Source: Candidatus Poribacteria bacterium (GTDB taxonomy: Bacteria > Poribacteria > WGA-4E > PCPOR2b). Taken from it: a DNA stretch of 64,000 nucleotides. The stretch covers positions 1,472,001 through 1,536,000 of the forward strand of contig OZ242351.1 of assembly GCA_965208675.1 (NCBI GenBank), in the 5' to 3' direction. Positions 1-63,936 of this stretch are shown here, piece after piece. The notes below the pieces were generated by a model, which saw only the letters and a program-made list of their open reading frames with translations, was not told where the DNA came from and searched no databases. Both the position numbers and the translations under genes were made by a program. Numbering within the stretch: the stretch's first letter is position 1; every line of letters begins with the position of its first letter.

Positions 1-3000
1 TGGCTAGCGACAATATCCAGACGCTGTTTGAATCACGGGACGGCGGATTTTGGGTGGGCACACGAGATAACGGTGTCAGTTTTGCTGATAGATTGTGGAG
101 ATCAATTACGACAAATGACGGATTGAGCGATAACCAAGTGATAACAATGTTGACGGATGGCGGCGGGACAACTTGGGTAGGCACTCGCAGCGGGTTGGTT
201 CGGTATACTGGTAGGACTATCGAATCGGTAGAAGAACTACTGGGGCGCGGCATACGCGCGCTCGCCGAAGATGCCGAGGGGCGGCTTTGGGTTGGAACAG
301 ATTCGGGAATTGTAGTATTTAGTCTATTATCGGATGAGCCTTCCATATGGCGCCGTTTTCGAAGAGAGGATGGGCTTAATCACGACAGCATTCAATCCTT
401 GGTCGTTGACGCAGCGGGTGATATTTGGGTGGGTTCAGGAATTTTGCTCCCCGATGAAACGGGCTTCCTCCCCGGTCTAGATCGATTTGACGGCGACCAA
501 TGGCGTGCTGAAGAAGACATTTTTCAGGAAATCGGCAAAATAGTCATCGTGATGTCTTCAGATTCACGAGAACGTCTATATTTTGGCACTGTTGGCAGCT
601 CCACTAACGGTAGCGAGTTGTGGGTTTACGATGGTGGAATTTTGAAAGAAATTAGTGCGAATTTTAACGGTTCCATCAATACTGTCATGGAATCCACTGA
701 CGGCAACCTTTGGATTGGGACAAGTGATGGCATCCTGATTTTAGATGGAGAGACGCTACAGCAGAAGAATCGACTGACGACTGATGATGGATTGGTAGAT
801 AACCGTGTACAAGCGTTTTACCGAGATGATCCCGATGGCATGTGGATTGGCACGGCCGATGGGGTCAGTTTATTTCAGAACAATTCATTTGCGCGCTCAC
901 TCACGGCTAGCGACGGTTTAAACAGCAATAACATCTCTGTCATCATCAAACCGGCTGATGGCGTGCTCTGGTTTGGGAGTAAGGATAACGGCGGCGTCAG
1001 CCATTTTAATCAGGAGATGATACCGCCAACCACTCGCATTATCGAAGGTCCCACAAACGGTGAAATTGTTGGAGAAACGAGCGTTATCTTCAAGTTTGAA
1101 GGGGGAGATCTTAGCACGCCAACCCCGGAACTTCGCTATCAATACAAACTTGATGACAACCTCCCAATGCCTACCGACGATGACGGTTTTTCAATTCGTG
1201 TTTCGCTGTCAGGCCTGACGGAAGGCGGCCATCGATTCATCGTTCAAGCGATGGATCGAGAGGGCAACCCGGATCTGCTTGGTGCGCAGGCTGAATTTGT
1301 TATCGATTCGAAACCGCCAACGGTTCTCATAACCAATCCGAAGCCCGGTGCGGTCATCAAGGGAGTTTATGGAATCGAGGGTAGCGCGACCGATACGGAT
1401 TTTCACGATTACGAGATTCAGATTTCGGGGCAGTCTGTGTTCACCTCAAACCAACCTGTGGACAGAAATACGCTCTATCGGTGGAATACGCAAACCGTAC
1501 CCGACGGCACATACAATATTCGGCTCACCGCGCGAGATACACCAAACGGCGACTATGACCGGCAACATCGCGCCGAGGAGATAATAACCGTCGAAGTAGA
1601 CAACACCTTGCCCGGTGCAAAAATTAAGCAACCGTTACCTGACGCTACAGTTTCGGGCGAAACCGATGTGGAAATCGAACTGACCGACCTTCATCTGATG
1701 AGCTATCGGTTAGAATTCACACGTACAGCATTGACAACGGACACGCCGGAAGTTTTTGCATCGGGTTCAATCTTCGACAGTCCATTATCTATTGTGAAAC
1801 AGGTACCGTGGAATTCATCAACCGTGTATGGCCATGTAATGCTTCGGGCAGCAGTTGCAGACGCAGCGGGAAACGAAGGGGTGTCAGAAGCTGTGCCCAT
1901 TTTCCTCGACAATGAAGGCGCTAAGCCAGTTGTTGAGATTCACCGACCGGATGGGATTAATCCGATTGCGAAGGAAACAGCCGTTACCGGAACAGTCGGC
2001 GTTGGCACAGCGCCCGACACCTTCATTGAAAACATCAATCTCGAATACCGACATGCAGAAAACCTCCAGGGTTGGAAGCCGCTGCGGAGCGGCCGTCTTA
2101 CTTTGAACAACGAAGAGATTACACGATGGGACACTACTCCGCTGCCTGACGGCGATTATCTGTTACGATTATCAGCAAAGGATAGCAACGGATACACGTC
2201 TAATTTCGAGCGCATGGTAATTTTGGATAATACACCGCCGACGGGCGTCATCAGATTGCCGCAGGATGGGGATGTTCGAAAAGCAGAGCGTATCGACGTA
2301 ATTGGTACGGCGACGGATGAAAATTTCGAAAACTTCGAGCTAGAATATTCTGAAGGTGGTGAAACATGGACACCGATTCCAGGATTGAGCACCTCTGTTG
2401 AATCAGGACGACTGGGAACCTGGAACGCGGAAGACCTACCCGGCGGCGCTTATCGGCTGCGTCTCACTGTCTCCGATAAAGCGGGTCTAGAAACGGTGAC
2501 AGAGATCGGCGTGGTGCTTGATGACTCGGATGTTGTTGCGTCAATTACCTCACCCAAGCAAGATGATTACGTCAGCGGTCAAGTAAGAATTATAGGCACA
2601 GCGAACGATCCAAATTTTAATCGATTTCAACTGGAATTCCGGCCTATGGGCCAAAACGGTGCATGGCGACCAATTCCGGATTTGTTCAGCCCCAATCAAC
2701 CCAAAGAAAACGAACCTCTCGCAGATTGGAATACCCCTCAAGTTGATGAGAGCTACGAAGTCCGATTGACGGCATTCGATGATTCGGGAAGAAGCGATAG
2801 GCGCACCGTTCCGGTGCACGTTGATAATCTTAAACCAAGCGCACAAATTTTCAAGGTTCAATCCCTGCGTGCGGAATCTCAAGATTCACAGCTACTGTCG
2901 GGCGAAGTCGAAATTATCGGTGAAGCTACCGATGTCCACTTCAAAGACTTTCGCTTAGATTATCGCCCTACCGACAACAGCGATAATTGGCAACCAATTC

Positions 3001-4493
3001 CAGTGCTGAATTCCACAAGGCCTCGACGGAACACGACGCTCGCTATTTGGAGGAATACGCCGCAAATTGATGGCGAGTACGAAATTCGCCTGGTAGTTGA
3101 GGATAAATCGGGTAAGTCAAATCCGGCTATCAAACGCGTCGAAATTGACAACCAATCTCCGGACGTTGAAATCTCTCAGCCTAGTAATCGTCAGTTGGTG
3201 TCCGGCACAATTGAAATTATCGGTACAGCGAGCGATAAATATCTTGAAGCATATCAACTAGATTTCAGAGCCGAGGGCACTAGCGACTGGCAGCAGATTA
3301 TTCGCGACAACCAGCCCAAGCAAGCGGCGGTCTTGGGAAAATGGGAACCGCCGAAGGTGGATGACGTGTATGAAATCCGCTTGCTAGCTTTTGATATTGA
3401 TGGGTCAAGACAACCAAGTGAGGCAATCGTGCAGGTCCTCGTTGATAGGCTGCCGCCGCAAGCGGAAATTCACTCTCCTACAGCAAATCAACAGCTACCC
3501 CGAAAGGTTGACATTCTGGGAACAGCGGATGATCGAAATTTCAATGGATACGTTATCGAATACAGCGGCGGGCAATCACCCGATATCTGGCGGCCGATTT
3601 CCAAAACGGGGTTTTTGAAACCCGTGTACGAAGGACTCCTAGCAGAATGGAGCGTCCCCGAATTTTCGTCCGGCGAGTATTCACTGCGGCTGCGTGTAAC
3701 GGATGACGCCGGCCATCAGAGCACCGCTCATGTCAAAGTGTTTTTCCGCGAGCGTGTGGAGCGCCAAGATAATAGTGCTGTGCAGAGTGAAGATGGAATC
3801 GCCAAAATTGTCTTTCCGCCAAACAGCTTGCCAGAATCGACTTACGTGACTATAAATCCAGTGCCATCGGCGAATGTTTCGTCCTCATCCTCCAGAGATG
3901 AGATGTTGAGGCCCGGTGGATCGCCAACTATCATTCCACGTTTCGATACCATCTACAATTTTGAACCGAAAAATTTGCAGCTTCACCGCCTCAAACCAGC
4001 AACAATGGAGTTTTCCGTGCACGGACTCACAGCGGCCACGCGAAATGAAGCATTAATAATTTCTCGCCGGGATGGCGAGCGGTGGAAACCCATCGGCGGC
4101 ACAATCAATACGCGGCTGGGCACGATTTCGACGGTTGTATCAGAGTTAGGGCAGTACGCCGTAACAACATTACCTCCCGTGGAAATAGACGGGGACGTAA
4201 TCATCTCCGACCTAACCTGCCAACCGCGCCTCTTTTCGCCAAACAATGACGAATCAACATCAATCTCGTTTCGATTAAATCAGCCAACTAATGTCACGGT
4301 GCGAATCTACAATGCGGCAGGACGGCTGCGGCGGAATCTAAGAGAATCAGAACCGCTTTCGACGGGGCGGCATGTCTTTTGGTGGGATGGGCGCGACGAC
4401 GATATGCGGCGGGTTGCCAGCAATTTTTACATTGTTACGGTTGAAGCTGAAGGAGCGTTAGAGCGAAAAACCGTTATCGTACAGAACAATTAA
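1..4493 (+). CDS. Large secreted protein, 5' partial: two-component-regulator-type beta-propeller repeats, Y_Y_Y-like domain, ~8 Ig-like (Big) repeats, C-terminal FlgD-Ig/T9SS-like sorting domain
   Basis: Frame is open upstream of the ORF-track start at 54 (ASDNIQTLFESRDGGFWVGT). Repeated DGLxxNxV...D..G.LWIGT motifs, ~100-aa repeats starting DNxxPxxxIxxP, and C-terminal PRLFSPN...IYNAAGRLRR...WDGRDD motif. Confidence 0.85.
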   Translation, partial: ASDNIQTLFESRDGGFWVGTRDNGVSFADRLWRSITTNDGLSDNQVITMLTDGGGTTWVGTRSGLVRYTGRTIESVEELLGRGIRALAEDAEGRLWVGTDSGIVVFSLLSDEPSIWRRFRREDGLNHDSIQSLVVDAAGDIWVGSGILLPDETGFLPGLDRFDGDQWRAEEDIFQEIGKIVIVMSSDSRERLYFGTVGSSTNGSELWVYDGGILKEISANFNGSINTVMESTDGNLWIGTSDGILILDGETLQQKNRLTTDDGLVDNRVQAFYRDDPDGMWIGTADGVSLFQNNSFARSLTASDGLNSNNISVIIKPADGVLWFGSKDNGGVSHFNQEMIPPTTRIIEGPTNGEIVGETSVIFKFEGGDLSTPTPELRYQYKLDDNLPMPTDDDGFSIRVSLSGLTEGGHRFIVQAMDREGNPDLLGAQAEFVIDSKPPTVLITNPKPGAVIKGVYGIEGSATDTDFHDYEIQISGQSVFTSNQPVDRNTLYRWNTQTVPDGTYNIRLTARDTPNGDYDRQHRAEEIITVEVDNTLPGAKIKQPLPDATVSGETDVEIELTDLHLMSYRLEFTRTALTTDTPEVFASGSIFDSPLSIVKQVPWNSSTVYGHVMLRAAVADAAGNEGVSEAVPIFLDNEGAKPVVEIHRPDGINPIAKETAVTGTVGVGTAPDTFIENINLEYRHAENLQGWKPLRSGRLTLNNEEITRWDTTPLPDGDYLLRLSAKDSNGYTSNFERMVILDNTPPTGVIRLPQDGDVRKAERIDVIGTATDENFENFELEYSEGGETWTPIPGLSTSVESGRLGTWNAEDLPGGAYRLRLTVSDKAGLETVTEIGVVLDDSDVVASITSPKQDDYVSGQVRIIGTANDPNFNRFQLEFRPMGQNGAWRPIPDLFSPNQPKENEPLADWNTPQVDESYEVRLTAFDDSGRSDRRTVPVHVDNLKPSAQIFKVQSLRAESQDSQLLSGEVEIIGEATDVHFKDFRLDYRPTDNSDNWQPIPVLNSTRPRRNTTLAIWRNTPQIDGEYEIRLVVEDKSGKSNPAIKRVEIDNQSPDVEISQPSNRQLVSGTIEIIGTASDKYLEAYQLDFRAEGTSDWQQIIRDNQPKQAAVLGKWEPPKVDDVYEIRLLAFDIDGSRQPSEAIVQVLVDRLPPQAEIHSPTANQQLPRKVDILGTADDRNFNGYVIEYSGGQSPDIWRPISKTGFLKPVYEGLLAEWSVPEFSSGEYSLRLRVTDDAGHQSTAHVKVFFRERVERQDNSAVQSEDGIAKIVFPPNSLPESTYVTINPVPSANVSSSSSRDEMLRPGGSPTIIPRFDTIYNFEPKNLQLHRLKPATMEFSVHGLTAATRNEALIISRRDGERWKPIGGTINTRLGTISTVVSELGQYAVTTLPPVEIDGDVIISDLTCQPRLFSPNNDESTSISFRLNQPTNVTVRIYNAAGRLRRNLRESEPLSTGRHVFWWDGRDDDMRRVASNFYIVTVEAEGALERKTVIVQNN

Positions 4494-11595: not shown

Positions 11596-11735
11596 AAAAT
11601 GTGAAGTGAATTGCAATTGCGACGGTTTGTTGACGGGAGGTTGAAGTTCGTGTGCGATCCCAGTTTTGCGCCTAATGTAGAACATCCAACCTAATTTCGC
11701 TTTTTTTATTCATTTTCGGGGCCGCCGTCTATCGC

Positions 11736-57254: not shown

Positions 57255-57295
57255 AATGCCGCATGACATAAAGGTCACCGCACAATCCTTCGTAT

Positions 57296-57521
57296 TACCC
57301 ACACGTAACATACCGCTCCACCGGAGCGGAAGAGGGTTGTGAAAGCTGTTTCTATAGATATGCCGCTCCGCTGGAGCGAAACCCTTCTAACCGCATTAAT
57401 CCCACATTAGCGAAGACTATCGCACTCACTATTCGTTCGCTTGATCACTCCAGAGGAGTGCAATGTCTATAGCTAAGATGTGTCCGCCTCGCACCCGCTC
57501 CAGCGGAGCGGTATGTGGGTA
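57296..57521. repeat. REP/BIME-like element with four palindromes in inverted arrangement
   Basis: ccgctccaccggagcgg, cgctccgctggagcg, cactccagaggagtg and ccgctccagcggagcgg. The ends tacccac...ataccgctcc and ggagcggtatgtgggta are complementary. Confidence 0.8.
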
Positions 57522-57682
57522 TTTGCGATAAATTGCTGTTTCTAGATATGCATGATACGCCCTCATTGAGATGTGGGTAATAGTAAGTCCACATTTTCGC
57601 ATGAGTTACGTGAGGAATTGCCTCTAACTCCGACTGGAAAGAACTGAAATGCCGATAACGGTACTTTTGAGCCTGGTGAACC

Positions 57683-58093
57683 GTGAAAGCCTATATCTCC
57701 ATTAAATTCCGTGAAGACAACAGCAACAAAGATTGTATTCAAAAAATCTCGTCTGCGCTTGAGCGAAACGGTTTTGAAACAGTATGTGTCGCCCGTGACA
57801 TTGAGAATTGGGGAGAAGCCGAATTTAGTCCCGCAGATTTGATGCAAAGGTCATTTGCTGCAATCGAGTCGAGTGACGTATTCGTGGTCGACTTGTCAGA
57901 AAAAGGGGTAGGATTGGGCATCGAAGCGGGTTACGCATACGCGGTGAAAATCCCGATTGTAGTCATTGCTAAAGCGGGTTCAGACATTTCAACGACGCTA
58001 AAGGGTATTTCCCAGAAACAGTTTTTGTACGAGACTTTCGATGATCTTGTTCAATTTTTTGAAGAATTGGAGATTCCCCATGTTCAGCAATGA
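57683..58093 (+). CDS. Nucleoside 2-deoxyribosyltransferase / DNPH1-like protein
   Basis: KAYIS...IESSDVFVVD...GVGLGIEAGYAYA.KIP. Confidence 0.85.
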   Translation: MKAYISIKFREDNSNKDCIQKISSALERNGFETVCVARDIENWGEAEFSPADLMQRSFAAIESSDVFVVDLSEKGVGLGIEAGYAYAVKIPIVVIAKAGSDISTTLKGISQKQFLYETFDDLVQFFEELEIPHVQQ

Positions 58094-58167
58094 GTTCAGA
58101 CTAGGTTTAGCTGGGTGGCCACGCCTGTATCAAAACCGTCTCGTTGTCGATAAGGAGAACTTTGTTT

Positions 58168-60008
58168 ATGCCGCGACCAATTGCAGTTGATGAAGTTGTA
58201 TCATTTCCGTATGCGGGAATTGAGATTCGTGCTCTCTCGCCCGACTGCGATCTCTCAGCGGATGGCTTACGAGTTGCGTACACGCATCGGAATCAGATTC
58301 ATATCACCGATCTGCAAACATCAAAGACGTACGAACCATTCAAAGGAAGATTCCCAAAATGGTCACCCGTCCAACCCAACATGCTTGCATTCCTAAAGCC
58401 AGAGAATCCAGGCGCGTGGCTTAGATACCCCGATGGTACCGAGGGGCAGTTGGCAGGGAACGCGCAGGAAGTCAGTTTCTTGCAATGGTCATTTGACGGT
58501 AAGTTTATCGCCCTCATTGCGAATCGGGATCTAGAAATACAAAATGAAGACTCCGATGACGATATTGTTATCGTGCTTCCACCGCCGCTCACCGCTGTGA
58601 GTTCAATCGTAATTCTTCATGTAGAGACGGACGAAACCACCCTTCTTGTGGAATCAAGTCCGGGAGAATCCTACGAAGCGGTAACTTGGCATCCTGATGG
58701 CAATTGGCTGACTGTTCACTCAATAATAGAAAGACGAAACCAAGACGATTGGGATGAACGCCTTTTTGATATCGATCGAAGAACTGGAAATAGGTATGAC
58801 CGCATTGGCCCCGGCAAGAATGAGATAATTTCACCCTCATGGTCTCCGTGCGGAAAGTATTTGGCAATGGGCTACTCCCCATATAGCTATATTCATCCTG
58901 TACGTAATATGTGTGCCATTATGGAGAGAGATTCAAAGGAGGTTCGGATATTGGACGATGAATACTTCGTTAATTTCGTCTGCTGGGGACATGACAGCCG
59001 AAAAATATACTGTAGCGGCTTAAAAGGAATCAACCGCCATGTCTTCTCTGTCGATATACATACCGGAAGAAAAGAGGTGATAGTAGATCGAACCGGATGG
59101 ACTAACCTTGCGGGGATAAGCCGGGACGGGCGGAAGCTCTTGTCGGTATTTCATGGGCTATTAACGCTTCCGGACGCTTACCTCATCTCCCTTGATACTG
59201 GAGAGGAAAGGGCTGTCACTCAATTTAGCTGCCAACTCGCCGATTACGAGCTAGCCGATGCTTCCGTTGTCGAATGGGCGTCGTACGACGGTTTGGTTAT
59301 TCAAGGCTGCGTTGTTCCGCCGTTAGGCAAGCCGATGAGTCCAGAGAATCCTACCATCGTCGATTTGCATGGCGGACCGACTGAAGGCGGCGCGGCAATC
59401 TTCCACTACCATGAGTGGCATTGGTTGGCAGCGAATGGGTTTCAGTATTCGCGCCCGACTTTCGCGGGAGTCAACAGTATCGGTGGTGCGACCCGCCAAC
59501 TGAAGAGATGGACTATAGAGATGCCATGTGCGGCATCAACTGGTTGGCGTCTCAACAGATGTGCGACAAGGCGAGAATGGGAGTGCACGGCTATAGCTAT
59601 GGTGCTATACTTGGGGCTTACGCCATCGGGAAGTCAACGCTTTTTCGCGCCGCTGTCCTGTTAAATGGACTCTACGACTACCGTCTTTCTTGTGGGCTTG
59701 GCGGCCAAACACGGTGGGGATCAACTTGCGCTAAAGAGTTGGGAGGAGCGCCATGGGAGGTTCCAGATGTATACCAAGAACAATCTCCCATCAGCTACGT
59801 TGGCAACGTCGAAACTCCGGTTCTAATCCTTGTCGGGGAGAATGACGCCCGGCACGAAGCTGAACTGTATACTGCATACTTAAGAGCGCAAGGTAAAGAG
59901 GTTACCTGCGTGCTTTACAAAGGCGCGGGACATAGTCTCGGCAAAAAACACCGGAAGGATTATTACGAACGGACGTTACAGTGGTTCCGCAAGTATCTCG
60001 ACCCATGA
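58168..60008 (+). pseudogene. S9 peptidase with TolB-like propeller, frameshifted copy
   Basis: Paralogue of 61877-63718 with one G missing at ~59445 (ttcagtattc versus ttcaggtattc). The GYSYG nucleophile motif lies in the shifted frame. Confidence 0.88.
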
Positions 60009-60250
60009 ATCCAGCCAATCCGAAGTCGGCATTCCCCAATCACACCGTTACCAAATACCCCTAATCCACCGCTTCACTTGTCAAATTTCTACCATGTGAC
60101 GGAGATACGCCTTCGGTGTTTTTCGCCAAATAAGGATTGGGTTTTGATTTGGACGCCCGCATCTACATAAGAACAATGCGCCATACGTAAAATAGAGTAA
60201 CGCATGACACATAACGTCCAATTCCGAGGTTTTTCTTACGCATTGCGAAC

Positions 60251-61717
60251 GTTTCAATGCTTGCCCCGATGAAAAGGGGACTGAAAAATCTTCGCGGTTG
60301 AACAATGAGCGAAGATAGTTTTTCCTCATTCGATGTTGTGCCGCAACGGGACTTGCAAGTAGGGATAGTCAGCTATCAGGTGTTTTCAACCATTGCTCCG
60401 AACAAAAGGGCACTGAAGGTCGAAAATGTTAGAGGGCCCTCGGTGGCGATCATTTACTGGGTAAACCGCCATCAACCCGGAGAGTAGACTTTGAATTTTT
60501 GGGAAAACCAAAGGAGGTCTCCAACATTGGATGTTAGGACGTCTCATTTACAGACCCGATCAATCGTGAGCGGGGGTCCGTTAACACGGATGCGCGTGGT
60601 GATGATTTCGTCCCTGGTGAGGTTTGGTGTTCTGTTGTCCCTGCCGACACTGTTGGCTGGCGGAGCTCGATGGTGGTGGCCGCTGGAGCTCATGACGCAT
60701 TTTCGAGTCCACTACGCCTTGACGTTGGCGCCGCTGACCATCGCACTCGTAGTTGGCAAACGCTACTTGATGTCGATTCTGACAAGCGGTTGTCTGCTCT
60801 GGAATCTCTGGCTGATCGCGCCAGCCTATATTGAACTGCCTATCAGTTACAGCGAACCGGTCGTTTTGCGTCTCATGTCGGCCAACGTCCACACGGGTAA
60901 CCGGAACTACGAGCGGTTTCTGCGAGCGGTCCGGTCGGCGGCCCCGGACGTGTTGCTGGTGATGGAAATCGACCATCGCTGGAATCAAGCGATCGAGGCG
61001 TTGGAAGCTGACTACCCTCATCATCACCGCCACCCGCGGAGGGACAACTTTGGCATCGGCCTGTTCGCTAAGCTGCCGGTCCAATCACTGGATGTGCAAT
61101 TCGTAGGCACTGCCGACGTGCCGTCGATTCATGCACGCGTCGAAGTGGGCGATCAGACGGTGACTATTTTCGGTACCCATCCCCTACCGCCCACAAGTTG
61201 GCAGAATTCGGCGCTGCGCAACGAACAACTTCAGGCGATCGCGGATCTGGCAACGGCGACAGATGGCCTGCTGATTGTGATGGGCGACTTGAATGTCACC
61301 CCCTGGTCCCCCTACTTTCGCGACCTGCTAAGCCGTTCCACGCTCCGCGACTCGCGCCGTGGCTTTGGCATCCAACCCACCTGGCCAAGCCGGTACGGAC
61401 CTGGCGGCATACCGATTGATCATGTATTGGTGTCGAAGGAACTCTCGGTCATCAACAGGTGGGTCGGACCGCACATGGGCTCCGATCACCGAGCTGTGAT
61501 TGTGGATATAGGCGTCGCCCGTGGCGCCCCGTCCGGGGCGAATGACCCGCCGCAGACGGGGCAAGTGGCAAGTGTCGAGAGGAGTGATCGTTGAACTCAA
61601 AACGTTGTCCGCCTGTTTCAACCACTACCCCGATGAAAAGGGGCCTGAAAGGATTCTCGCGCCTAGAACCTAAATTCTCAGTTTCAACTCTTGCCCCGAT
61701 GAAAGGGAGTCTGAAAG
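60251..61717 (+). CRISPR. Orphan degenerate CRISPR-like array: four 37-nt repeats (60251-60287, 60383-60419, 61615-61651, 61681-61717) with intervening segments of 95, 1195 and 29 nt
   Basis: gtttcaatgcttgccccgatgaaaaggggactgaaaa, ttttcaaccattgctccgaacaaaagggcactgaagg, gtttcaaccactaccccgatgaaaaggggcctgaaag and gtttcaactcttgccccgatgaaagggagtctgaaag align without gaps. CCCC/GGGG hairpin and CTGAAAG 3' end are typical of class 1 repeats. Confidence 0.72.
60590..61594 (+). CDS. Membrane-anchored endonuclease/exonuclease/phosphatase (EEP, YafD-like) protein
   Basis: N-terminal TM helices, SANV, PDVLLVME, H-P, MGDLNVTPWS, TWP, IDHV, GSDH. ORF open from 60491. Confidence 0.92.
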   Translation: MRVVMISSLVRFGVLLSLPTLLAGGARWWWPLELMTHFRVHYALTLAPLTIALVVGKRYLMSILTSGCLLWNLWLIAPAYIELPISYSEPVVLRLMSANVHTGNRNYERFLRAVRSAAPDVLLVMEIDHRWNQAIEALEADYPHHHRHPRRDNFGIGLFAKLPVQSLDVQFVGTADVPSIHARVEVGDQTVTIFGTHPLPPTSWQNSALRNEQLQAIADLATATDGLLIVMGDLNVTPWSPYFRDLLSRSTLRDSRRGFGIQPTWPSRYGPGGIPIDHVLVSKELSVINRWVGPHMGSDHRAVIVDIGVARGAPSGANDPPQTGQVASVERSDR

Positions 61718-61876
61718 TTGGTAAAGCAGTTCGGATCTACGAGTCATTTTAGCCTCGTTTGATTTGCTATCACGCTCTGGCTACCGCCTCATAGCTGATA
61801 TTGAAAACGGTGTGTAGTAAGCGAACTCATACCAGTGTTGGATTTTTTCTTTCACGGTTAGATAAGGAGTTTGTTT

Positions 61877-63718
61877 ATGCCACGACCGATTACAGTTGAT
61901 GAAGTTGCATCATTTCCGTATGCGGGAATTGAGATTCCTGCACTCTCGCCCGACTGCGATCTCTCTGCGGATGGCTTACGAGTTGCGTACACGCATCGGA
62001 ATCGTATTCAAATCAACGATTTGGAAACATCAAAAACGTACGAACCATTCAAAGGAAGATTCCCAAAATGGTCGCCCGTCCAACCCAACATGCTTGCATT
62101 CCTGAAGCCAGAGAGTCCAGGCGTGTGGCTCAGATACCCCGACGGTACCGAGGGGCAGTTGGCAGGGAACGCGCAGGAAGTCAGTTTCTTGCAATGGTCA
62201 TTTGACGGTAAGTTTATCGCCCTCATTGCGAATCGAGATTTAGAAATACAAGATGAAGACACCGATGACGATATTGTTATCGTCCTGCCACCCCCGCTCG
62301 CCGCTGTGAGTTCAATTGTAATACTTCATTTAGAGACGGGCGAAGCCACCCTTCTTGTGGATTCAAGTCCGGGAGAATCCTACGAAGCGGTAGCTTGGCA
62401 TCCTGATGGCAATTGGGTAACTGTTCACTCAATGATAGAAAGTCGAAACCGATGCGATTCCGACTATTGCCTTTTTGATATAGATCGAAGAACTGGCAAT
62501 AGAAATGACCGTATTGGTCCCGGCAAGAATGAGATGATTTCACCCTCATGGTCTCCGTGCGGAAATTATTTGGCATTAGGCTACTCCCCATATAGCTACA
62601 TTCATCCTGTACGTAATATGTGCGCCATTATGGAGAGAGATTCAAAGCAGGTGCGAATATTGGACGATGAATACTTCGTAAATTTCGTCTGCTGGGGACA
62701 TGACAGTCGGAAAATATACTGCAGCGGATTAAAGGGAATCAGCCGACATGTCTTCTCTGTTGATATACAAACTGGACGAAAAGAGGTTATCGTAGATCAA
62801 ACCGGATGGACCTATCTTGCAGGGATAAGCCGCGACGGGCGGAAACTCTTGACAGTTTTATGGGGATTATTGACGCTTCCGGATGCTCACCTCATCTCAC
62901 TTGATACTGGAGAGGAAAGGGCTGTCACACAATTCAGCGACCAACTCACCGATTACGAGCTGGCTGACGCTTCCGTTGTCGAGTGGGAATCCTACGACGG
63001 TTTGGTTATTCAAGGCTGCGTTGTTCCGCCGGTGGGCAAGTCGATGAGCCCTGAGAATCCTACCATCGTCGATTTGCACGGCGGACCGACTGGGGACGGC
63101 ACGGCAGTCTTCTACCGTTATTGGCATTGGTTGGCAGCCAATGGGTTTCAGGTATTCGCACCCGACTTTCGCGGGAGTCAACAGTATCAGTGGTGCGAAC
63201 CGCCAACCGATGAAATGGACTATAGAGATGCCATGTGCGGCATCAACTGGTTGGCGTCCCAACAGATGTGCGACAAGGCGCGAATGGGAGTGCACGGTTT
63301 TAGTTATGGCGCGGATCTTGGGGCTTACGCCATTGGGAAATCGACGCTCTTTCGGGCTGCTGTGCTGCATGGCGGGTGTTGCGACTACCGTCTCGCTTGC
63401 GGATTGGGTCTCCAAACACGGTGGGGCTCAATTTGTGCGGAAGAAATGGGGGGTGCACCGTGGGAGGTTCCACACGTCTACCAGGAACTATCTCCCATCA
63501 GTTACGTTGCGGATGTGGAAACACCCGTTCTAATTCTTCACGGAGAGAATGATACCCCGCACCAAGCCGAACCGTATACGGCATACCTAAGGGCGCTCGG
63601 AAAGGAGGTTTCCTATGTGCTGTACAAGGGTGAAGGGCACGGTCTCAACAAAGCATCGAATAAAAAAGATTGTTGGGAGCGGTCATTGCGGTGGTTCCGC
63701 AAGTATCTCAACCCCTGA
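61877..63718 (+). CDS. S9 (prolyl oligopeptidase / acylaminoacyl peptidase family) serine peptidase
   Basis: PxWSP propeller repeats, HGGP, GFSYG, HGEND, EGHG triad. RBS aaggag. Confidence 0.93.
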   Translation: MPRPITVDEVASFPYAGIEIPALSPDCDLSADGLRVAYTHRNRIQINDLETSKTYEPFKGRFPKWSPVQPNMLAFLKPESPGVWLRYPDGTEGQLAGNAQEVSFLQWSFDGKFIALIANRDLEIQDEDTDDDIVIVLPPPLAAVSSIVILHLETGEATLLVDSSPGESYEAVAWHPDGNWVTVHSMIESRNRCDSDYCLFDIDRRTGNRNDRIGPGKNEMISPSWSPCGNYLALGYSPYSYIHPVRNMCAIMERDSKQVRILDDEYFVNFVCWGHDSRKIYCSGLKGISRHVFSVDIQTGRKEVIVDQTGWTYLAGISRDGRKLLTVLWGLLTLPDAHLISLDTGEERAVTQFSDQLTDYELADASVVEWESYDGLVIQGCVVPPVGKSMSPENPTIVDLHGGPTGDGTAVFYRYWHWLAANGFQVFAPDFRGSQQYQWCEPPTDEMDYRDAMCGINWLASQQMCDKARMGVHGFSYGADLGAYAIGKSTLFRAAVLHGGCCDYRLACGLGLQTRWGSICAEEMGGAPWEVPHVYQELSPISYVADVETPVLILHGENDTPHQAEPYTAYLRALGKEVSYVLYKGEGHGLNKASNKKDCWERSLRWFRKYLNP

Positions 63719-63936
63719 ATCCAGCCAATCCGAAGTCGGTATTCCCCAATCCCCTATTCTCCAACGCTCGCTAATCCACGTTGGTATTTGGATTAAAGAG
63801 CGGGCTGAACTTACCTTCTACGGCAGGGAGGACGCTGACTTCCCTCGTGGCTGTTATTCAAGCATCAGCCAGAATTTTTCGGATAAGCTGATGGTGGTCG
63901 GCTCCGCTCTTAGTCAGGGTGGCGGGGCGCGTTATT

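What the first reader, a model, noticed from the sequence alone, without database searches (positions are those of the whole stretch)
60251..61717. A whole gene sits in the 'spacer' position of an orphan CRISPR-like mini-array
Seen: four ungapped 37-nt repeats (consensus about GTTTCAACCATTGCCCCGATGAAAAGGGGACTGAAAG) separated by 95, 1195 and 29 nt. The 1195-nt segment carries an intact EEP nuclease/phosphatase gene that stops 20 nt before repeat 3. No cas, integrase or transposase gene was recognised in the window. Established: the hairpin and ...GAAAG end resemble Cas6-processed class 1 (type III/I-D-like) repeats. Inference, three options: (a) gene-sized DNA captured as a spacer, so repeats act as a cassette-capture platform; (b) repeats reused as Cas6 processing sites that cut out and regulate the EEP mRNA; (c) a crRNA-like regulatory unit as in CreTA; a decayed array with a later insertion is the mundane alternative.
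Basis: partly seen in the sequence, partly recalled or inferred. Interest (0 to 1): 0.8.

Follow-up and report, generated by a model that had tools for sequence, protein, structure and literature searches.

The report
Foreign gene lodged in decaying CRISPR remnant
Four worn copies of a genuine CRISPR repeat sit in a sponge-symbiont genome with a horizontally acquired phosphatase/nuclease-family gene exactly where the middle spacer should be; it looks like a relic of a collapsed CRISPR system rather than a new machine, though sister species show similar kilobase-sized inserts.

Summary
Four 37-nt repeats lie at 60251, 60383, 61615 and 61681, with gaps of 95, 1195 and 29 nt. An intact EEP gene ends 20 nt before repeat 3. 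The repeat is not REP-like. In 22 of 29 genomes of the same bacterial family it matches, often as long regular arrays. In a sister species (G005) the array lies beside a type I-B-like cas operon.

In this genome that system has collapsed. What remains is a truncated cas1 with three broken repeats, scattered solitary repeats, and a solo cas6 under purifying selection.

The mini-array has no leader. It lies in a 5.2-kb insertion absent from three sister species. The EEP gene is foreign: 59% GC against 45-46% in the flanks, no homologue in 28 related genomes, and its nearest relatives are mostly in Planctomycetota and allied phyla. Contigs from three other studies carry the same architecture at about 97% identity, so it is not a misassembly. 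One strain has lost a further base in repeat 2.

Best reading (about 0.55): a decaying orphan array with foreign DNA recombined into its middle spacer. Cas6 processing of the mRNA and capture as a spacer are not excluded. A sister species (G006) holds 0.63-kb and 1.54-kb fragments of foreign-looking DNA exactly in spacer position.

The parts
60192..60250 (+). About 60 nt of flank just upstream of repeat 1. It is not a CRISPR leader. It is shared only with a solitary degenerate repeat in G003, a different genus.
   Evidence: G003:3615545-3615642 matches window 60192-60286 at 75%; the flank motif occurs in 2 of 29 family genomes (G000 and G003); the true array leaders (G003, G005, G000 at 3.47 Mb) differ from it and carry a TTGACA...CATGATA promoter-like stretch.
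60251..60287 (+). Repeat 1. Hairpin CCCC/GGGG intact; last base A instead of G.
   Evidence: Blastn pieces overlapping repeat 1 (query 234-284) are 91-95% identical to array repeats of G018. Weak Rfam CRISPR-DR32 match, 28.6 bits against a gathering score of 48.
60288..60382 (+). 'Spacer' 1, 95 nt against 33-38 nt in real arrays of this family. It contains a predicted stem-loop followed by a T-run.
   Evidence: fold z-score -2.2. No significant match elsewhere in the genome.
60383..60419 (+). Repeat 2, the most degenerate copy (26-28 of 37 identical to the other three). The canonical hairpin is broken.
   Evidence: One strain (run X6) has a further 1-nt deletion at 60408.
60420..61614 (+). The 1195-nt segment in the middle spacer position: upstream untranslated DNA, the complete EEP gene, and 20 nt of tail.
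   Evidence: No terminal inverted repeats or target-site duplication at its ends.
60491..61594 (+). YafD-like endonuclease/exonuclease/phosphatase (EEP) gene with a hydrophobic N-terminus. The longest ORF starts at TTG 60491. The likely true start is ATG 60590 (334 aa) or TTG 60527 (preceded by AAGGAGG).
   Evidence: Pfam PF03372, E 2.5e-32. Homologues are 304-368 aa and cover about 80-90% of the query. Another strain carries two 1-nt deletions at 60543 and 60588, which argues that this stretch is non-coding. GC 59%, GC3 68%.
61615..61651 (+). Repeat 3. Hairpin intact; ends in ...CTGAAAG.
   Evidence: The C-terminus of protein P0001 (94% identical EEP from another assembly) reads through this repeat and spacer 3 with the same 20 residues as the G000 alternative frame.
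61652..61680 (+). 'Spacer' 3, 29 nt.
   Evidence: No significant match elsewhere in the genome.
61681..61717 (+). Repeat 4. The 3' arm of the hairpin is mutated. It lies 153 nt upstream of the start of S9 peptidase copy 2.
58144..60008 (+). Context: S9 peptidase copy 1, frameshifted into two ORFs (58144-59664 and 59415-60008).
61871..63718 (+). Context: S9 peptidase copy 2, intact (615 aa). It is 86.8% identical in DNA to copy 1, as far from it as either copy is from the G006 and G007 orthologues.

Best explanation
This is a relic. It is a leaderless orphan fragment, four repeats and three spacer positions, of a genuine CRISPR array family that in sister species is linked to a type I-B-like cas operon. 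It lies inside a lineage-specific 5.2-kb insertion: the mini-array with the EEP gene, a divergent second S9 peptidase allele, and an alpha/beta hydrolase gene. A horizontally acquired, complete YafD-like EEP gene occupies the middle spacer position. It most likely arrived by recombination, either into the spacer or through the repeats. No transposon or integrase signature is present. The repeats are now decaying and probably perform no CRISPR function here, because the cognate effector and adaptation genes have been lost from this genome. Shown: the repeat family and its cas linkage, the collapse of that system in this genome, the foreign origin of the gene, the absence of the block in sister species, and the reality and strain-level conservation of the junctions. 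Inferred: the order of events, the recombination mechanism, and the lack of a present function.
For: (1) Genuine CRISPR family. The pattern matches in 22 of 29 family genomes, with 20-124 matches in 12 of them. The places listed for G002, G003 and G005 are spaced 72-79 nt apart. In G005 a 42-repeat array lies beside cas6-cas8b1-cas7-cas5-cas3-cas1-cas4. (2) Collapse in G000. At the syntenic site only the leader, three broken repeats and a 295-aa cas1 remain, against 366 aa in G005 at 94% identity. The I-B cas7 of this family matches in G000 only at 36-54% identity, inside its other I-B locus at about 96 kb. Further debris lies at 0.846, 3.03-3.04, 3.47 and 3.76 Mb. (3) No leader. The flank of repeat 1 is unlike the true leaders. 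Spacing is irregular. The hairpins of repeats 2 and 4 are damaged. One strain has lost another base in repeat 2. (4) Lineage-specific block. G006 and G007 have one peptidase gene followed about 115 nt later by the next gene; G005 has no peptidase gene. The G000-only segments are 60015-61856 (mini-array with EEP) and 63725-65209 (hydrolase), with a second peptidase copy at 61857-63724 between them. The two peptidase copies are 86.8% identical, so this is not a recent tandem duplication. (5) Foreign gene. 0 of 28 other family genomes hold a homologue at E<=1e-10. GC is 59% against 45-46% in the flanks. The best named relatives are mostly from Planctomycetota and allied phyla, at 56-60% identity in the protein collection and up to 46% in species genomes. 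(6) The repeat-gene association is specific to this lineage. 0 of 80 metagenome loci and 0 of 80 genome loci that encode EEP relatives carry the repeat. (7) No transposon signature at the ends of the insert. (8) The arrangement is real. A 2475-nt contig of X1 spans 59522-61996 with 0 differences; X1 is probably the source sample. From other studies, an 1818-nt contig of X6 spans 60070-61887 (55 differences, 3 gaps), a contig of X5 spans 60505-62003, and contigs of X8 span 60012-60572 and 60593-61937. (9) Literature. Long 'spacers' and split arrays are known, mostly from IS elements, MITEs or transposons (passages of PMC4524480 and PMC4852346). Repeat-mediated recombination of mobile elements into arrays has been proposed (passage of PMC8616872).
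Against: The gene is neatly whole and co-oriented with the repeats, with only 107-170 nt upstream and 20 nt downstream. A random insertion need not look so tidy. The architecture persists at about 97% identity in strains from three other studies, and in the 94%-identical P0001 lineage repeat 3 and spacer 3 are unchanged at the protein-reading level. An intact solo cas6 is kept under purifying selection (dN/dS 0.08-0.10) at a syntenic locus in all four species of the genus, so the repeats could still be cut if transcribed. No empty-site allele and no donor were found, so neither the order of events nor the mechanism is shown. The repeats are the CCCC/GGGG variant typical of other genera, not this genus's own CCGC/GCGG variant. 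This suggests that the repeats were imported rather than left behind in place.
Confidence: 0.55

Rival explanations
1. The repeats are reused as Cas6 processing sites. The conserved solo Cas6 cuts a transcript that runs through repeats 1-2, the EEP gene, repeats 3-4 and peptidase copy 2. This would release defined mRNAs with an 8-nt 5' tag and a 3' hairpin, and would set their stability or translation.
For: The solo cas6 (G000:805661-806614, 318 aa) is intact and is 70% identical to the operon Cas6 of G005. Orthologues without a neighbouring cas8b sit at a syntenic locus in all 4 genomes of the genus. Pairwise dN/dS is 0.08-0.10. Repeats 1 and 3 keep the hairpin and the ...CUGAAAG end. All four repeats are co-oriented with the EEP gene and peptidase copy 2, and copy 2 has lost its native upstream region. 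Other solitary repeats in G000 lie just upstream of ribosome-binding sites and start codons and are co-oriented with the gene (3033563, 3036858, 3042431). Remote Cas6 enzymes process orphan arrays in Anabaena 7120 (abstract and passages of 10.1101/2020.04.14.041012).
Against: There are no RNA data. The hairpins of repeats 2 and 4 are damaged, and repeat 2 loses another base in one strain. An orthologous orphan array at 0.846 Mb decays differently in G000 (2 copies) and G005 (4 degenerate copies), as expected of neutral debris. Selection on cas6 can be explained by the real arrays in G005, G006 and G007. The G000 branch cannot be separated in pairwise dN/dS. The three co-oriented solitary repeats share one island and one strand, so they are not independent. 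No promoter-like site was found on the + strand (a consensus scan only).
Confidence: 0.15
2. The gene-sized DNA was captured in the way a spacer is. Either Cas1-Cas2(-Cas4) integrated an untrimmed kilobase prespacer, or a double crossover through two spacers or repeats matching a foreign element replaced what lay between them. On this reading the arrays of this lineage act as occasional capture sites for foreign DNA.
For: In G006 the array next to cas1 ends with inter-repeat segments of 631 and 1538 nt between intact repeats. The 1538-nt segment is a 5'-truncated piece of a methylase-like gene. Its homology to G007 protein P0122 starts at about residue 135 ('PDRVIMNPPF'), 4 nt after the repeat. 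By my reading, the 631-nt segment holds the 3' end of one ORF, a whole 74-aa ORF and the 5' start of a third. G007 has variant repeats about 0.7-1.1 kb apart with small ORFs between them. The window insert has no transposon ends. Recombination between spacers and their phage targets is documented (cited in a passage of PMC8616872).
Against: Kilobase prespacer integration was not described in the listed results of my four searches (I judged from listings and selected passages only). The window array has no leader and no adjacent cas1, so any capture must predate its arrival here. No donor, protospacer or PAM could be examined. A complete gene with its ribosome-binding site is not what random fragment capture predicts, unless selection kept it. 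In G006, integration of a mobile element followed by deletions remains possible.
Confidence: 0.12
3. The repeat pairs are solitary-repeat or mini-array units of mobile-element origin (Racr or crRNA-like decoys or regulators). They were brought in with the island, and the EEP gene is cargo.
For: The repeats are the variant used by other genera of the family, not by this genus's own arrays. The flank plus repeat 1 is shared only with a solitary repeat in G003, a different genus. Repeat 1 is followed by a predicted stem-loop and a T-run. Repeats 3 and 4 are 29 nt apart, within the 15-60 bp used to define mini-arrays (passage of 10.1101/2023.03.03.530964). Solitary repeat units on viruses act as RNA anti-CRISPRs (abstract of PMC10651486 in the listing).
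Against: No phage, plasmid, integrase or transposase gene lies in the 5.2-kb block. No tRNA gene lies nearby. No promoter-like site was found. The spacers have no significant target in the genome. The locus is far from any cas locus, whereas regulatory mini-arrays are defined within or next to one.
Confidence: 0.08
4. The arrangement is a misassembly collapsed on the repeats.
For: None was found. The repeats are short and the locus holds two copies of the peptidase gene.
Against: Short-read contigs bridge all the junctions: X1 covers 59522-61996 with 0 differences, and X6, from another study, covers 60070-61887. Protein P0001 from another assembly reads from the EEP gene into repeat 3 and spacer 3.
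Confidence: 0.01

Closest known systems
Orphan or fragmented CRISPR arrays served by remote Cas6 enzymes (Anabaena sp. PCC 7120; Reimann et al., bioRxiv 10.1101/2020.04.14.041012; abstract and passages seen)
   Same: Repeat-spacer fragments without cas genes are scattered around the chromosome, and a Cas6 gene is encoded elsewhere. The repeat is a hairpin-forming class 1 type that ends in ...GAAAG or ...GAAAC.
   Different: Here the fragment has only four degenerate repeats, no leader and irregular spacing. The effector genes of this repeat family are absent from the genome. A 1.2-kb foreign gene replaces the middle spacer. No processing data exist.
CRISPR arrays split by IS elements, MITEs or transposons, and 'long spacers' (PMC4852346 and PMC4524480; Tn7-like elements that target arrays, PMC11837452; passages seen)
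   Same: Kilobase-sized DNA lies between two repeats of an otherwise recognisable array. Some elements insert at a fixed position within spacers.
   Different: There is no transposase, no terminal inverted repeats and no target duplication. The content is a single ordinary cargo-type gene of foreign composition.
Regulatory mini-arrays and crRNA-like RNAs (CreTA, CreR; Shmakov et al., bioRxiv 10.1101/2023.03.03.530964; abstract and passages seen)
   Same: Two repeat-like sequences a short distance apart (repeats 3 and 4 are 29 nt apart), with a degenerate distal repeat.
   Different: The locus is not in or next to a cas locus. No spacer complementarity to a promoter or toxin gene was detectable. 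Repeats 1 and 2 are 95 nt apart.
Solitary repeat units and RNA anti-CRISPRs on mobile elements, and the proposed recombination between such units and host arrays (PMC10651486, listing and start of abstract only; Faure et al. 2019 as cited in a passage of the review PMC8616872)
   Same: Isolated copies of a host-type CRISPR repeat lie outside arrays. Recombination through repeats is a plausible route for foreign DNA into or out of arrays.
   Different: No viral or plasmid context could be shown for the window block.
Integron gene cassettes (recalled; no call)
   Same: A promoterless gene is bracketed by short structured repeats.
   Different: There is no integrase and no attC-type imperfect palindromes. 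The repeats are direct CRISPR repeats.

Membership tests
Canonical CRISPR array | Three or more near-identical direct repeats of 23-50 nt | tested here: met
   There are four 37-nt copies, but they share only 26-31 of 37 positions with each other.
Canonical CRISPR array | Regular spacing, with unique spacers of similar length | tested here: not met
   The gaps are 95, 1195 and 29 nt. Arrays of this family in relatives have start-to-start spacings of 72-79 nt (listed places for G002, G003, G005, G006, G007).
Canonical CRISPR array | The repeat belongs to a cas-linked family | tested here: met
   22 of 29 family genomes match. In G005 the array is adjacent to a type I-B-like operon. cas1 lies beside the arrays in G006 and G007.
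Canonical CRISPR array | A leader with a promoter upstream of the first repeat | tested here: not met
   The upstream flank is unlike the conserved leaders of G003, G005 and G000 at 3.47 Mb. No promoter-like site was found on the + strand.
Canonical CRISPR array | Cognate cas genes in the genome | tested here: inconclusive
   A solo cas6 is intact. The cas1 is truncated. No cas7 or effector of this family was found, only those of the other I-B plus III-A locus.
Regulatory mini-array (CreTA, CreR, crRNA-like) | Two repeat-like sequences 15-60 bp apart | tested here: met
   Repeats 3 and 4 are 29 nt apart. Repeats 1 and 2 (95 nt) do not qualify (definition).
Regulatory mini-array (CreTA, CreR, crRNA-like) | Located within or next to a cas locus | tested here: not met
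   The nearest cas gene is hundreds of kilobases away.
Regulatory mini-array (CreTA, CreR, crRNA-like) | Spacer partly complementary to the promoter of a cas, cargo or toxin gene | tested here: inconclusive
   blastn-short of both spacers against the genome gave only 12-17-nt matches at E>=0.3. Short seed matches cannot be told from chance.
Solitary repeat unit / RNA anti-CRISPR | Encoded on a virus, plasmid or other mobile element | tested here: not met
   No mobile-element genes in the block and no tRNA gene nearby.
Transposon or IS insertion in an array | A transposase gene, or terminal inverted repeats with a target duplication | tested here: not met
   The only ORF with a Pfam match is the EEP gene, and no terminal repeats were found.
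REP/BIME-type dispersed repeat | A short palindromic unit in many intergenic copies, not linked to cas genes | tested here: not met
   A profile search finds 11 copies at E<0.01 in G000 (plus weaker partial hits), and the family forms cas-linked arrays in relatives. A true REP-like cluster does exist nearby at 57264-57598, but it is a different sequence.
Endonuclease/exonuclease/phosphatase superfamily (Pfam PF03372), for the gene | A full-length match over the curated cut-off | tested here: met
   112.8 bits against a cut-off of 24.5, over profile positions 1-225 of 225. 451 homologues at E<=0.001; where the sources name them, they are named as EEP-family proteins, many of them YafD. Catalytic residues and substrate were not tested.

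The most novel reading that the evidence does not exclude
In this genus of sponge symbionts, CRISPR arrays of one type I-B-linked repeat family repeatedly take up kilobase-sized foreign DNA exactly in spacer position. There are three cases: a complete EEP gene here, 0.63-kb and 1.54-kb fragments of foreign-looking DNA between intact repeats next to cas1 in G006, and small ORFs between variant repeats in G007. The route would be either integration of untrimmed prespacers or recombination guided by spacers or repeats. A solo Cas6, kept under purifying selection in all four species, could then cut the resulting transcripts. Repeats would in that case serve both as capture sites and as mRNA processing signals.
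Probability: 0.12. Interest if true: 0.8.

Novelty: new variant of a known kind. Interest (0 to 1): 0.45.

Why it matters
Orphan and fragmented arrays, and arrays split by transposons, are already known, so the core of the finding is ordinary CRISPR decay. The uncommon part is a complete foreign gene of no transposon kind lying exactly in a spacer position, together with parallel kilobase-sized inserts in sister species. One of those inserts is a truncated gene fragment that starts 4 nt after an intact repeat. If such inserts arise through the adaptation machinery or through recombination guided by repeats or spacers, arrays would be a route of gene gain as well as of immunity. The solo cas6, conserved after its effector genes were lost, also gives a concrete test of whether Cas6 and leftover repeats are reused for processing host mRNA.

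Tried and rejected
Misassembly is rejected: contigs bridge every junction.

A REP-type family is rejected.

A transposon is rejected: no terminal repeats or target duplication, and no transposase.

A recent tandem duplication of the peptidase gene as the source of the block is rejected: the two copies are 86.8% identical.

Self-targets of the spacers: nothing beyond chance.

Promoter and terminator scan: one terminator-like site after peptidase copy 1 and no promoter-like site on the + strand. This is a consensus scan only, and the organism's promoters may differ.

Rfam: only weak CRISPR-DR32 and CRISPR-DR10 matches to repeats 1 and 3, below the gathering scores.

A repeat-flanked EEP gene elsewhere: 0 of 80 metagenome loci and 0 of 80 genome loci.

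An EEP homologue in relatives: 0 of 28.

Mobile-element context of the G007 variant repeats: 10 neighbouring ORFs scanned with Pfam, and none was of a mobile-element type.

Synteny of the G000 island at 3.03-3.04 Mb: the region is a mosaic with no colinear counterpart, so conservation of its solitary repeats at orthologous sites could not be tested.

Expression: no RNA holder was listed, and I draw no conclusion from that.

An empty-site allele: none was identified. The skip joints between positions 60286 and 61615 carry 33-38 other letters and are ordinary repeat-spacer-repeat units of other arrays in the samples. The joint 58102->61870 in X5 has only 31 nt on its shorter side.

The organism's name was not obtained. 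Runs that hold the stretch are labelled sponge metagenome.

Supplementary files of papers were not opened. Supplementary tables of PMC4524480 and PMC4852346 list the long spacers and may hold non-transposon cases that I could not see.

Literature on kilobase-sized non-transposon spacers: I ran four searches and judged them from listings and selected passages only.
Full report
OBSERVATION. The window lies at 1472001-1536000 of a single 4.89-Mb contig with 49% GC. The four 37-nt repeats are at 60251-60287, 60383-60419, 61615-61651 and 61681-61717 on the + strand. The gaps between them are 95, 1195 and 29 nt. The copies share 26-31 of 37 positions with each other. The ORF 60491-61594 matches Pfam Exo_endo_phos at E 2.5e-32 over the whole profile, and it stops 20 nt before repeat 3. 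Repeats 1 and 3 fold into a 4-bp G:C hairpin with an 8-nt loop. In repeats 2 and 4 this hairpin is damaged.

WHAT THE REPEAT IS. It is a genuine CRISPR repeat. A pattern for its 3' two-thirds matches in 22 of 29 genomes of the same bacterial family, with 0 hits for the reversed control. Twelve of these genomes hold 20-124 matches, and the listed places are spaced 72-79 nt apart. In sister species G005, a 42-repeat array lies downstream of genes that NCBIfam assigns to Cas6 (weak match), Cas8b1, Cas7 (Cst2/DevR), Cas5b, Cas3, Cas1 and Cas4. This type I-B-like operon sits between glmS and rsmE-rimP-nusA. Two variants of the repeat exist. Their stems differ by a compensatory change: CCCC/GGGG in other genera and in the window, and CCGC/GCGG in this genus's own arrays. 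Rfam gives only sub-threshold CRISPR-DR32 matches.

STATE OF CRISPR-CAS IN THIS GENOME. One healthy locus lies at 86-106 kb. It combines type III-A and I-B genes with a 47-repeat array of an unrelated 30-nt repeat. The second system, the one the window repeats belong to, has collapsed. At the site syntenic with the G005 operon, only the leader, three broken or split repeats and a 295-aa cas1 remain. The G005 cas1 is 366 aa and 94% identical. A profile search finds further copies or half-copies at 845.6-845.7 kb, 3033.6, 3036.9, 3042.4, 3469.7 and 3760.0 kb. An intact cas6 (318 aa, PF10040) stands alone at 805.7 kb among non-cas genes.

This solo cas6 has orthologues without an adjacent cas8b in all four genomes of the genus, and at least one flank is conserved in each. 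Its pairwise dN/dS is 0.08-0.10. G005 carries in addition the operon cas6, which is 70% identical to the solo copy. With G005's cas7 as the query, the I-B cas7 of this family was found only in G005. G000 matched only at its other I-B locus, at 36-54% identity. G006 and G007 keep cas1 beside their arrays.

THE LOCUS. Comparison with the three sister genomes gives the following. G006 and G007 have the order aminotransferase, a small nucleoside-deoxyribosyltransferase-like gene, one S9 peptidase gene, about 115 nt, then a large downstream gene. G005 lacks the peptidase gene. Only G000 has these features:
- a REP-like cluster at 57264-57598;
- a frameshifted peptidase copy at 58144-60008;
- the block 60015-61856, which holds the mini-array and the EEP gene;
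- a second, intact peptidase copy at 61857-63724;
- the stretch 63725-65209, which holds a 306-aa ORF on the minus strand that I read as an alpha/beta hydrolase (no family search was run on it).

The two peptidase copies are 86.8% identical. That is as far apart as either is from the G006 and G007 orthologues (86-88%). The second copy is therefore an old paralogue or an imported allele, not a fresh duplicate.

The sequence upstream of repeat 1 is not a CRISPR leader. The leaders of G003, G005 and the G000 remnant resemble one another, with a TTGACA...CATGATA promoter-like stretch, and they do not resemble the window flank. About 60 nt of that flank, together with repeat 1, instead recur at 75% identity beside a solitary degenerate repeat in G003, which belongs to another genus. 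The flank is found in no other genome of the 29. Outside the repeats, the block has no DNA match in the 28 other family genomes.

THE GENE. The EEP ORF has 59% GC (GC3 68%). Its flanks have 45-46% and the peptidase genes have 50%. No homologue at E<=1e-10 exists in the 28 other family genomes. The best hit is P0001, 94% identical, from a 1780-bp contig of another assembly. After that come proteins at 56-60% identity, and those that carry an organism name are mostly planctomycetes. Among species genomes the best hits reach 46% identity and come mostly from Planctomycetota, Verrucomicrobiota and Lentisphaerota.

Homologues are 304-368 aa long. Another strain has two separate 1-nt deletions at 60543 and 60588. 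Both facts argue that the true start is ATG 60590 (334 aa). One strongly hydrophobic segment lies at residues 36-56.

None of the 80 metagenome loci or 80 genome loci that encode relatives carries the repeat. The ends of the insert have no inverted repeats or target duplication. The gene is thus a horizontally acquired, apparently complete cargo gene, and its association with the repeats is private to this lineage.

IS THE ARRANGEMENT REAL AND STABLE? Yes. Runs that hold the stretch are labelled sponge metagenomes. A 2475-nt short-read contig of X1, probably the source sample and so not independent, covers 59522-61996 without a difference. From other studies:
- X6: an 1818-nt contig covers 60070-61887 (55 differences, 3 gaps);
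- X5: a contig covers 60505-62003 (39 differences);
- X8: contigs cover 60012-60572 and 60593-61937.

P0001 ends with ...ACFNHYPDEKGPERILAPRT. This is the translation of repeat 3 plus spacer 3 in the G000 alternative frame, reached through a frameshift near the 3' end. The architecture therefore exists in several strains that differ by 3-6%. One sign of continuing decay is that the X6 strain has lost one more base at 60408, within the G-run that forms the 3' arm of repeat 2. The same samples also hold ordinary arrays of this repeat with 33-38-nt spacers (table 5c).

MOST LIKELY EXPLANATION. The simplest account is a four-repeat, three-spacer orphan fragment with foreign DNA in its middle spacer position. 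The fragment was carried on, or trapped in, a variable island, and it is now decaying because its cognate system is gone. The evidence for this account is:
- the missing leader and the irregular spacing;
- the damaged hairpins and the further decay of repeat 2 in one strain;
- the loss of the cognate system from this genome;
- the foreign composition and phylogeny of the gene;
- the absence of the block from sister species.

The literature knows long 'spacers' and split arrays. Most are transposons, IS elements or MITEs (passages of PMC4524480 and PMC4852346). Others are Tn7-like elements that insert at a fixed position within spacers (PMC11837452). Prophages that integrate into CRISPR loci are also reported (10.1101/2020.10.09.333658; listing and start of abstract only). 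Recombination through repeats, or between spacers and their targets, has been proposed or shown as a way for DNA to move in and out of arrays (passages of PMC8616872 and PMC4524480). The step I cannot show is how the EEP gene got in.

WHAT KEEPS THE MORE INTERESTING READINGS ALIVE. Three things do.

First, the solo cas6 is clearly functional at the sequence level. All four repeats are co-oriented with the EEP gene and with the downstream peptidase gene, which has lost its native upstream region. Solitary repeats elsewhere in G000 also lie directly before ribosome-binding sites. At 3033563 the repeat end ...ACTGAAAG is followed at once by GAGGTGA, 7 nt and then ATG. These facts fit repeats acting as Cas6 sites in mRNAs, but there are no RNA data. 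The three clearest cases also share one island and one strand. The orthologous orphan array at 0.846 Mb decays differently in G000 and G005.

Second, gene-sized inserts between repeats recur in the genus. In G006 the array next to cas1 ends with two intact repeats that enclose 631 nt, and then two that enclose 1538 nt. The larger segment is an open frame that starts within the methyltransferase motif 'PDRVVMNPPF', 4 nt after the repeat. This corresponds to about residue 135 of its 55%-identical homologue in G007, so it is a 5'-truncated gene fragment in spacer position. By my reading, the smaller segment holds the tail of one ORF, a whole 74-aa ORF and the head of a third. In G007, variant repeats lie about 0.7-1.1 kb apart with small ORFs of no known family between them. 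Ten neighbouring ORFs there showed no mobile-element family.

Third, these inserts lack transposon hallmarks, as far as I looked. They could reflect capture of untrimmed prespacers, double crossovers through spacers or repeats, or integration of a mobile element followed by deletion.

COMPARISON WITH KNOWN SYSTEMS. The locus works most like an orphan or fragmented array, as in Anabaena 7120, where remote Cas6 enzymes process such arrays. It fails the array tests for regular spacing and a leader. It is not a member of the regulatory mini-array class, because it is not near a cas locus and no spacer target was detectable. It is not a transposon insertion, not an integron, and not a REP family. 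A mobile-element origin of the repeat units (the solitary-repeat or Racr type; listing) is suggested by the foreign repeat variant and by the flank shared with G003, but no mobile-element genes are present.

VERDICT. The finding is real and well described. The mundane reading is the best supported, at about 0.55. Novelty: a new variant of a known kind, namely an orphan CRISPR remnant with a complete non-transposon foreign gene in spacer position. Interest is moderate (0.45). It is raised by the recurrent kilobase-sized inserts in sister species and by the conserved solo cas6. It is lowered by the signs of decay and by the lack of any functional evidence.

Noticed in passing
L157 (G006:C1:3995500-4002500), local 2281-2911 and 2949-4486: At the distal end of the G006 array next to cas1, intact repeats enclose 631 nt and then 1538 nt. 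The larger piece is a 5'-truncated methylase-like gene fragment that starts 4 nt after the repeat ('PDRVVMNPPF'). By my reading, the smaller piece holds parts of three tightly packed small ORFs. Both look like 'giant spacers' of foreign-looking DNA.
   Followed up: partly
L157 local 1596-1807 and 1996-2207; G000 genome 3471272-3471301 and 3469747-3469774: Several copies of this CRISPR repeat are split after position 28 (...GATGAAAAGCG|) by an insert of about 160 nt. The same break point recurs in two species, which suggests a small element that inserts into this repeat.
   Followed up: no
G000 genome 805661-806614 (-); loci L052-L055: A solo cas6 with no neighbouring cas genes is conserved at a syntenic locus in all four species of the genus. 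Pairwise dN/dS is 0.08-0.10. With the queries used, the I-B effector genes of this repeat family were found only in G005.
   Followed up: partly
G000 genome 3033563-3033595, 3036858-3036877, 3042431-3042467 (all -): Three solitary or half repeats lie within 9 kb of a mosaic island. Each is intergenic and co-oriented with the next gene, and one abuts the ribosome-binding site directly. The motif ATCGGACATTTT recurs downstream of two of them.
   Followed up: partly
G000 genome 3759962-3759993 (+); G005:C1:3617683-3617705: A 32-nt repeat-like stretch (its 3' 27 nt share 25 positions with the genus repeat) forms the last codons of an ORF that I read as nuoA-like, 12 nt before the next start codon. 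The 23-nt core is identical in G005.
   Followed up: no
G005:C1:3321527-3321549 (-), locus L049 about 11627-11646: A repeat-like sequence lies directly upstream of cas6, the first gene of the I-B-like operon. This recalls the cas-regulating crRNA-like elements described by Shmakov et al.
   Followed up: no
window 57264-57598: A cluster of REP-like palindromes (CCGCTCC..GGAGCGG units) is inserted between the aminotransferase gene and the next gene. It is absent at this site in G005, G006 and G007, and pieces of it occur at many places in all four genomes. A REP-associated tyrosine transposase gene lies in the G005 cas locus.
   Followed up: partly
window 58144-60008: The first S9 peptidase copy is broken by a frameshift into two overlapping ORFs (58144-59664 and 59415-60008). 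The second copy (61871-63718) is intact.
   Followed up: partly
L156 (G007:C1:3673500-3680000), local 2298-4208: Variant repeats (loop ...GATTACAAGC...) lie about 0.7-1.1 kb apart, some as repeat-36 nt-repeat pairs. ORFs of 128, 101 and 109 aa with no Pfam family lie between them.
   Followed up: partly
L158 (G007:C1:984500-988000), local 1705-1801 (-): A two-repeat unit of the CCCC/GGGG variant, the same variant as in the window, sits between a 475-aa ORF and an M28 peptidase gene and is co-oriented with both.
   Followed up: no
window 57683-58093 (+): A 136-aa protein matches Nuc_deoxyrib_tr just over the cut-off (29.2 bits against 28.8) and TIR_2 weakly. It lies directly upstream of the peptidase gene in all species that have that gene.
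   Followed up: no
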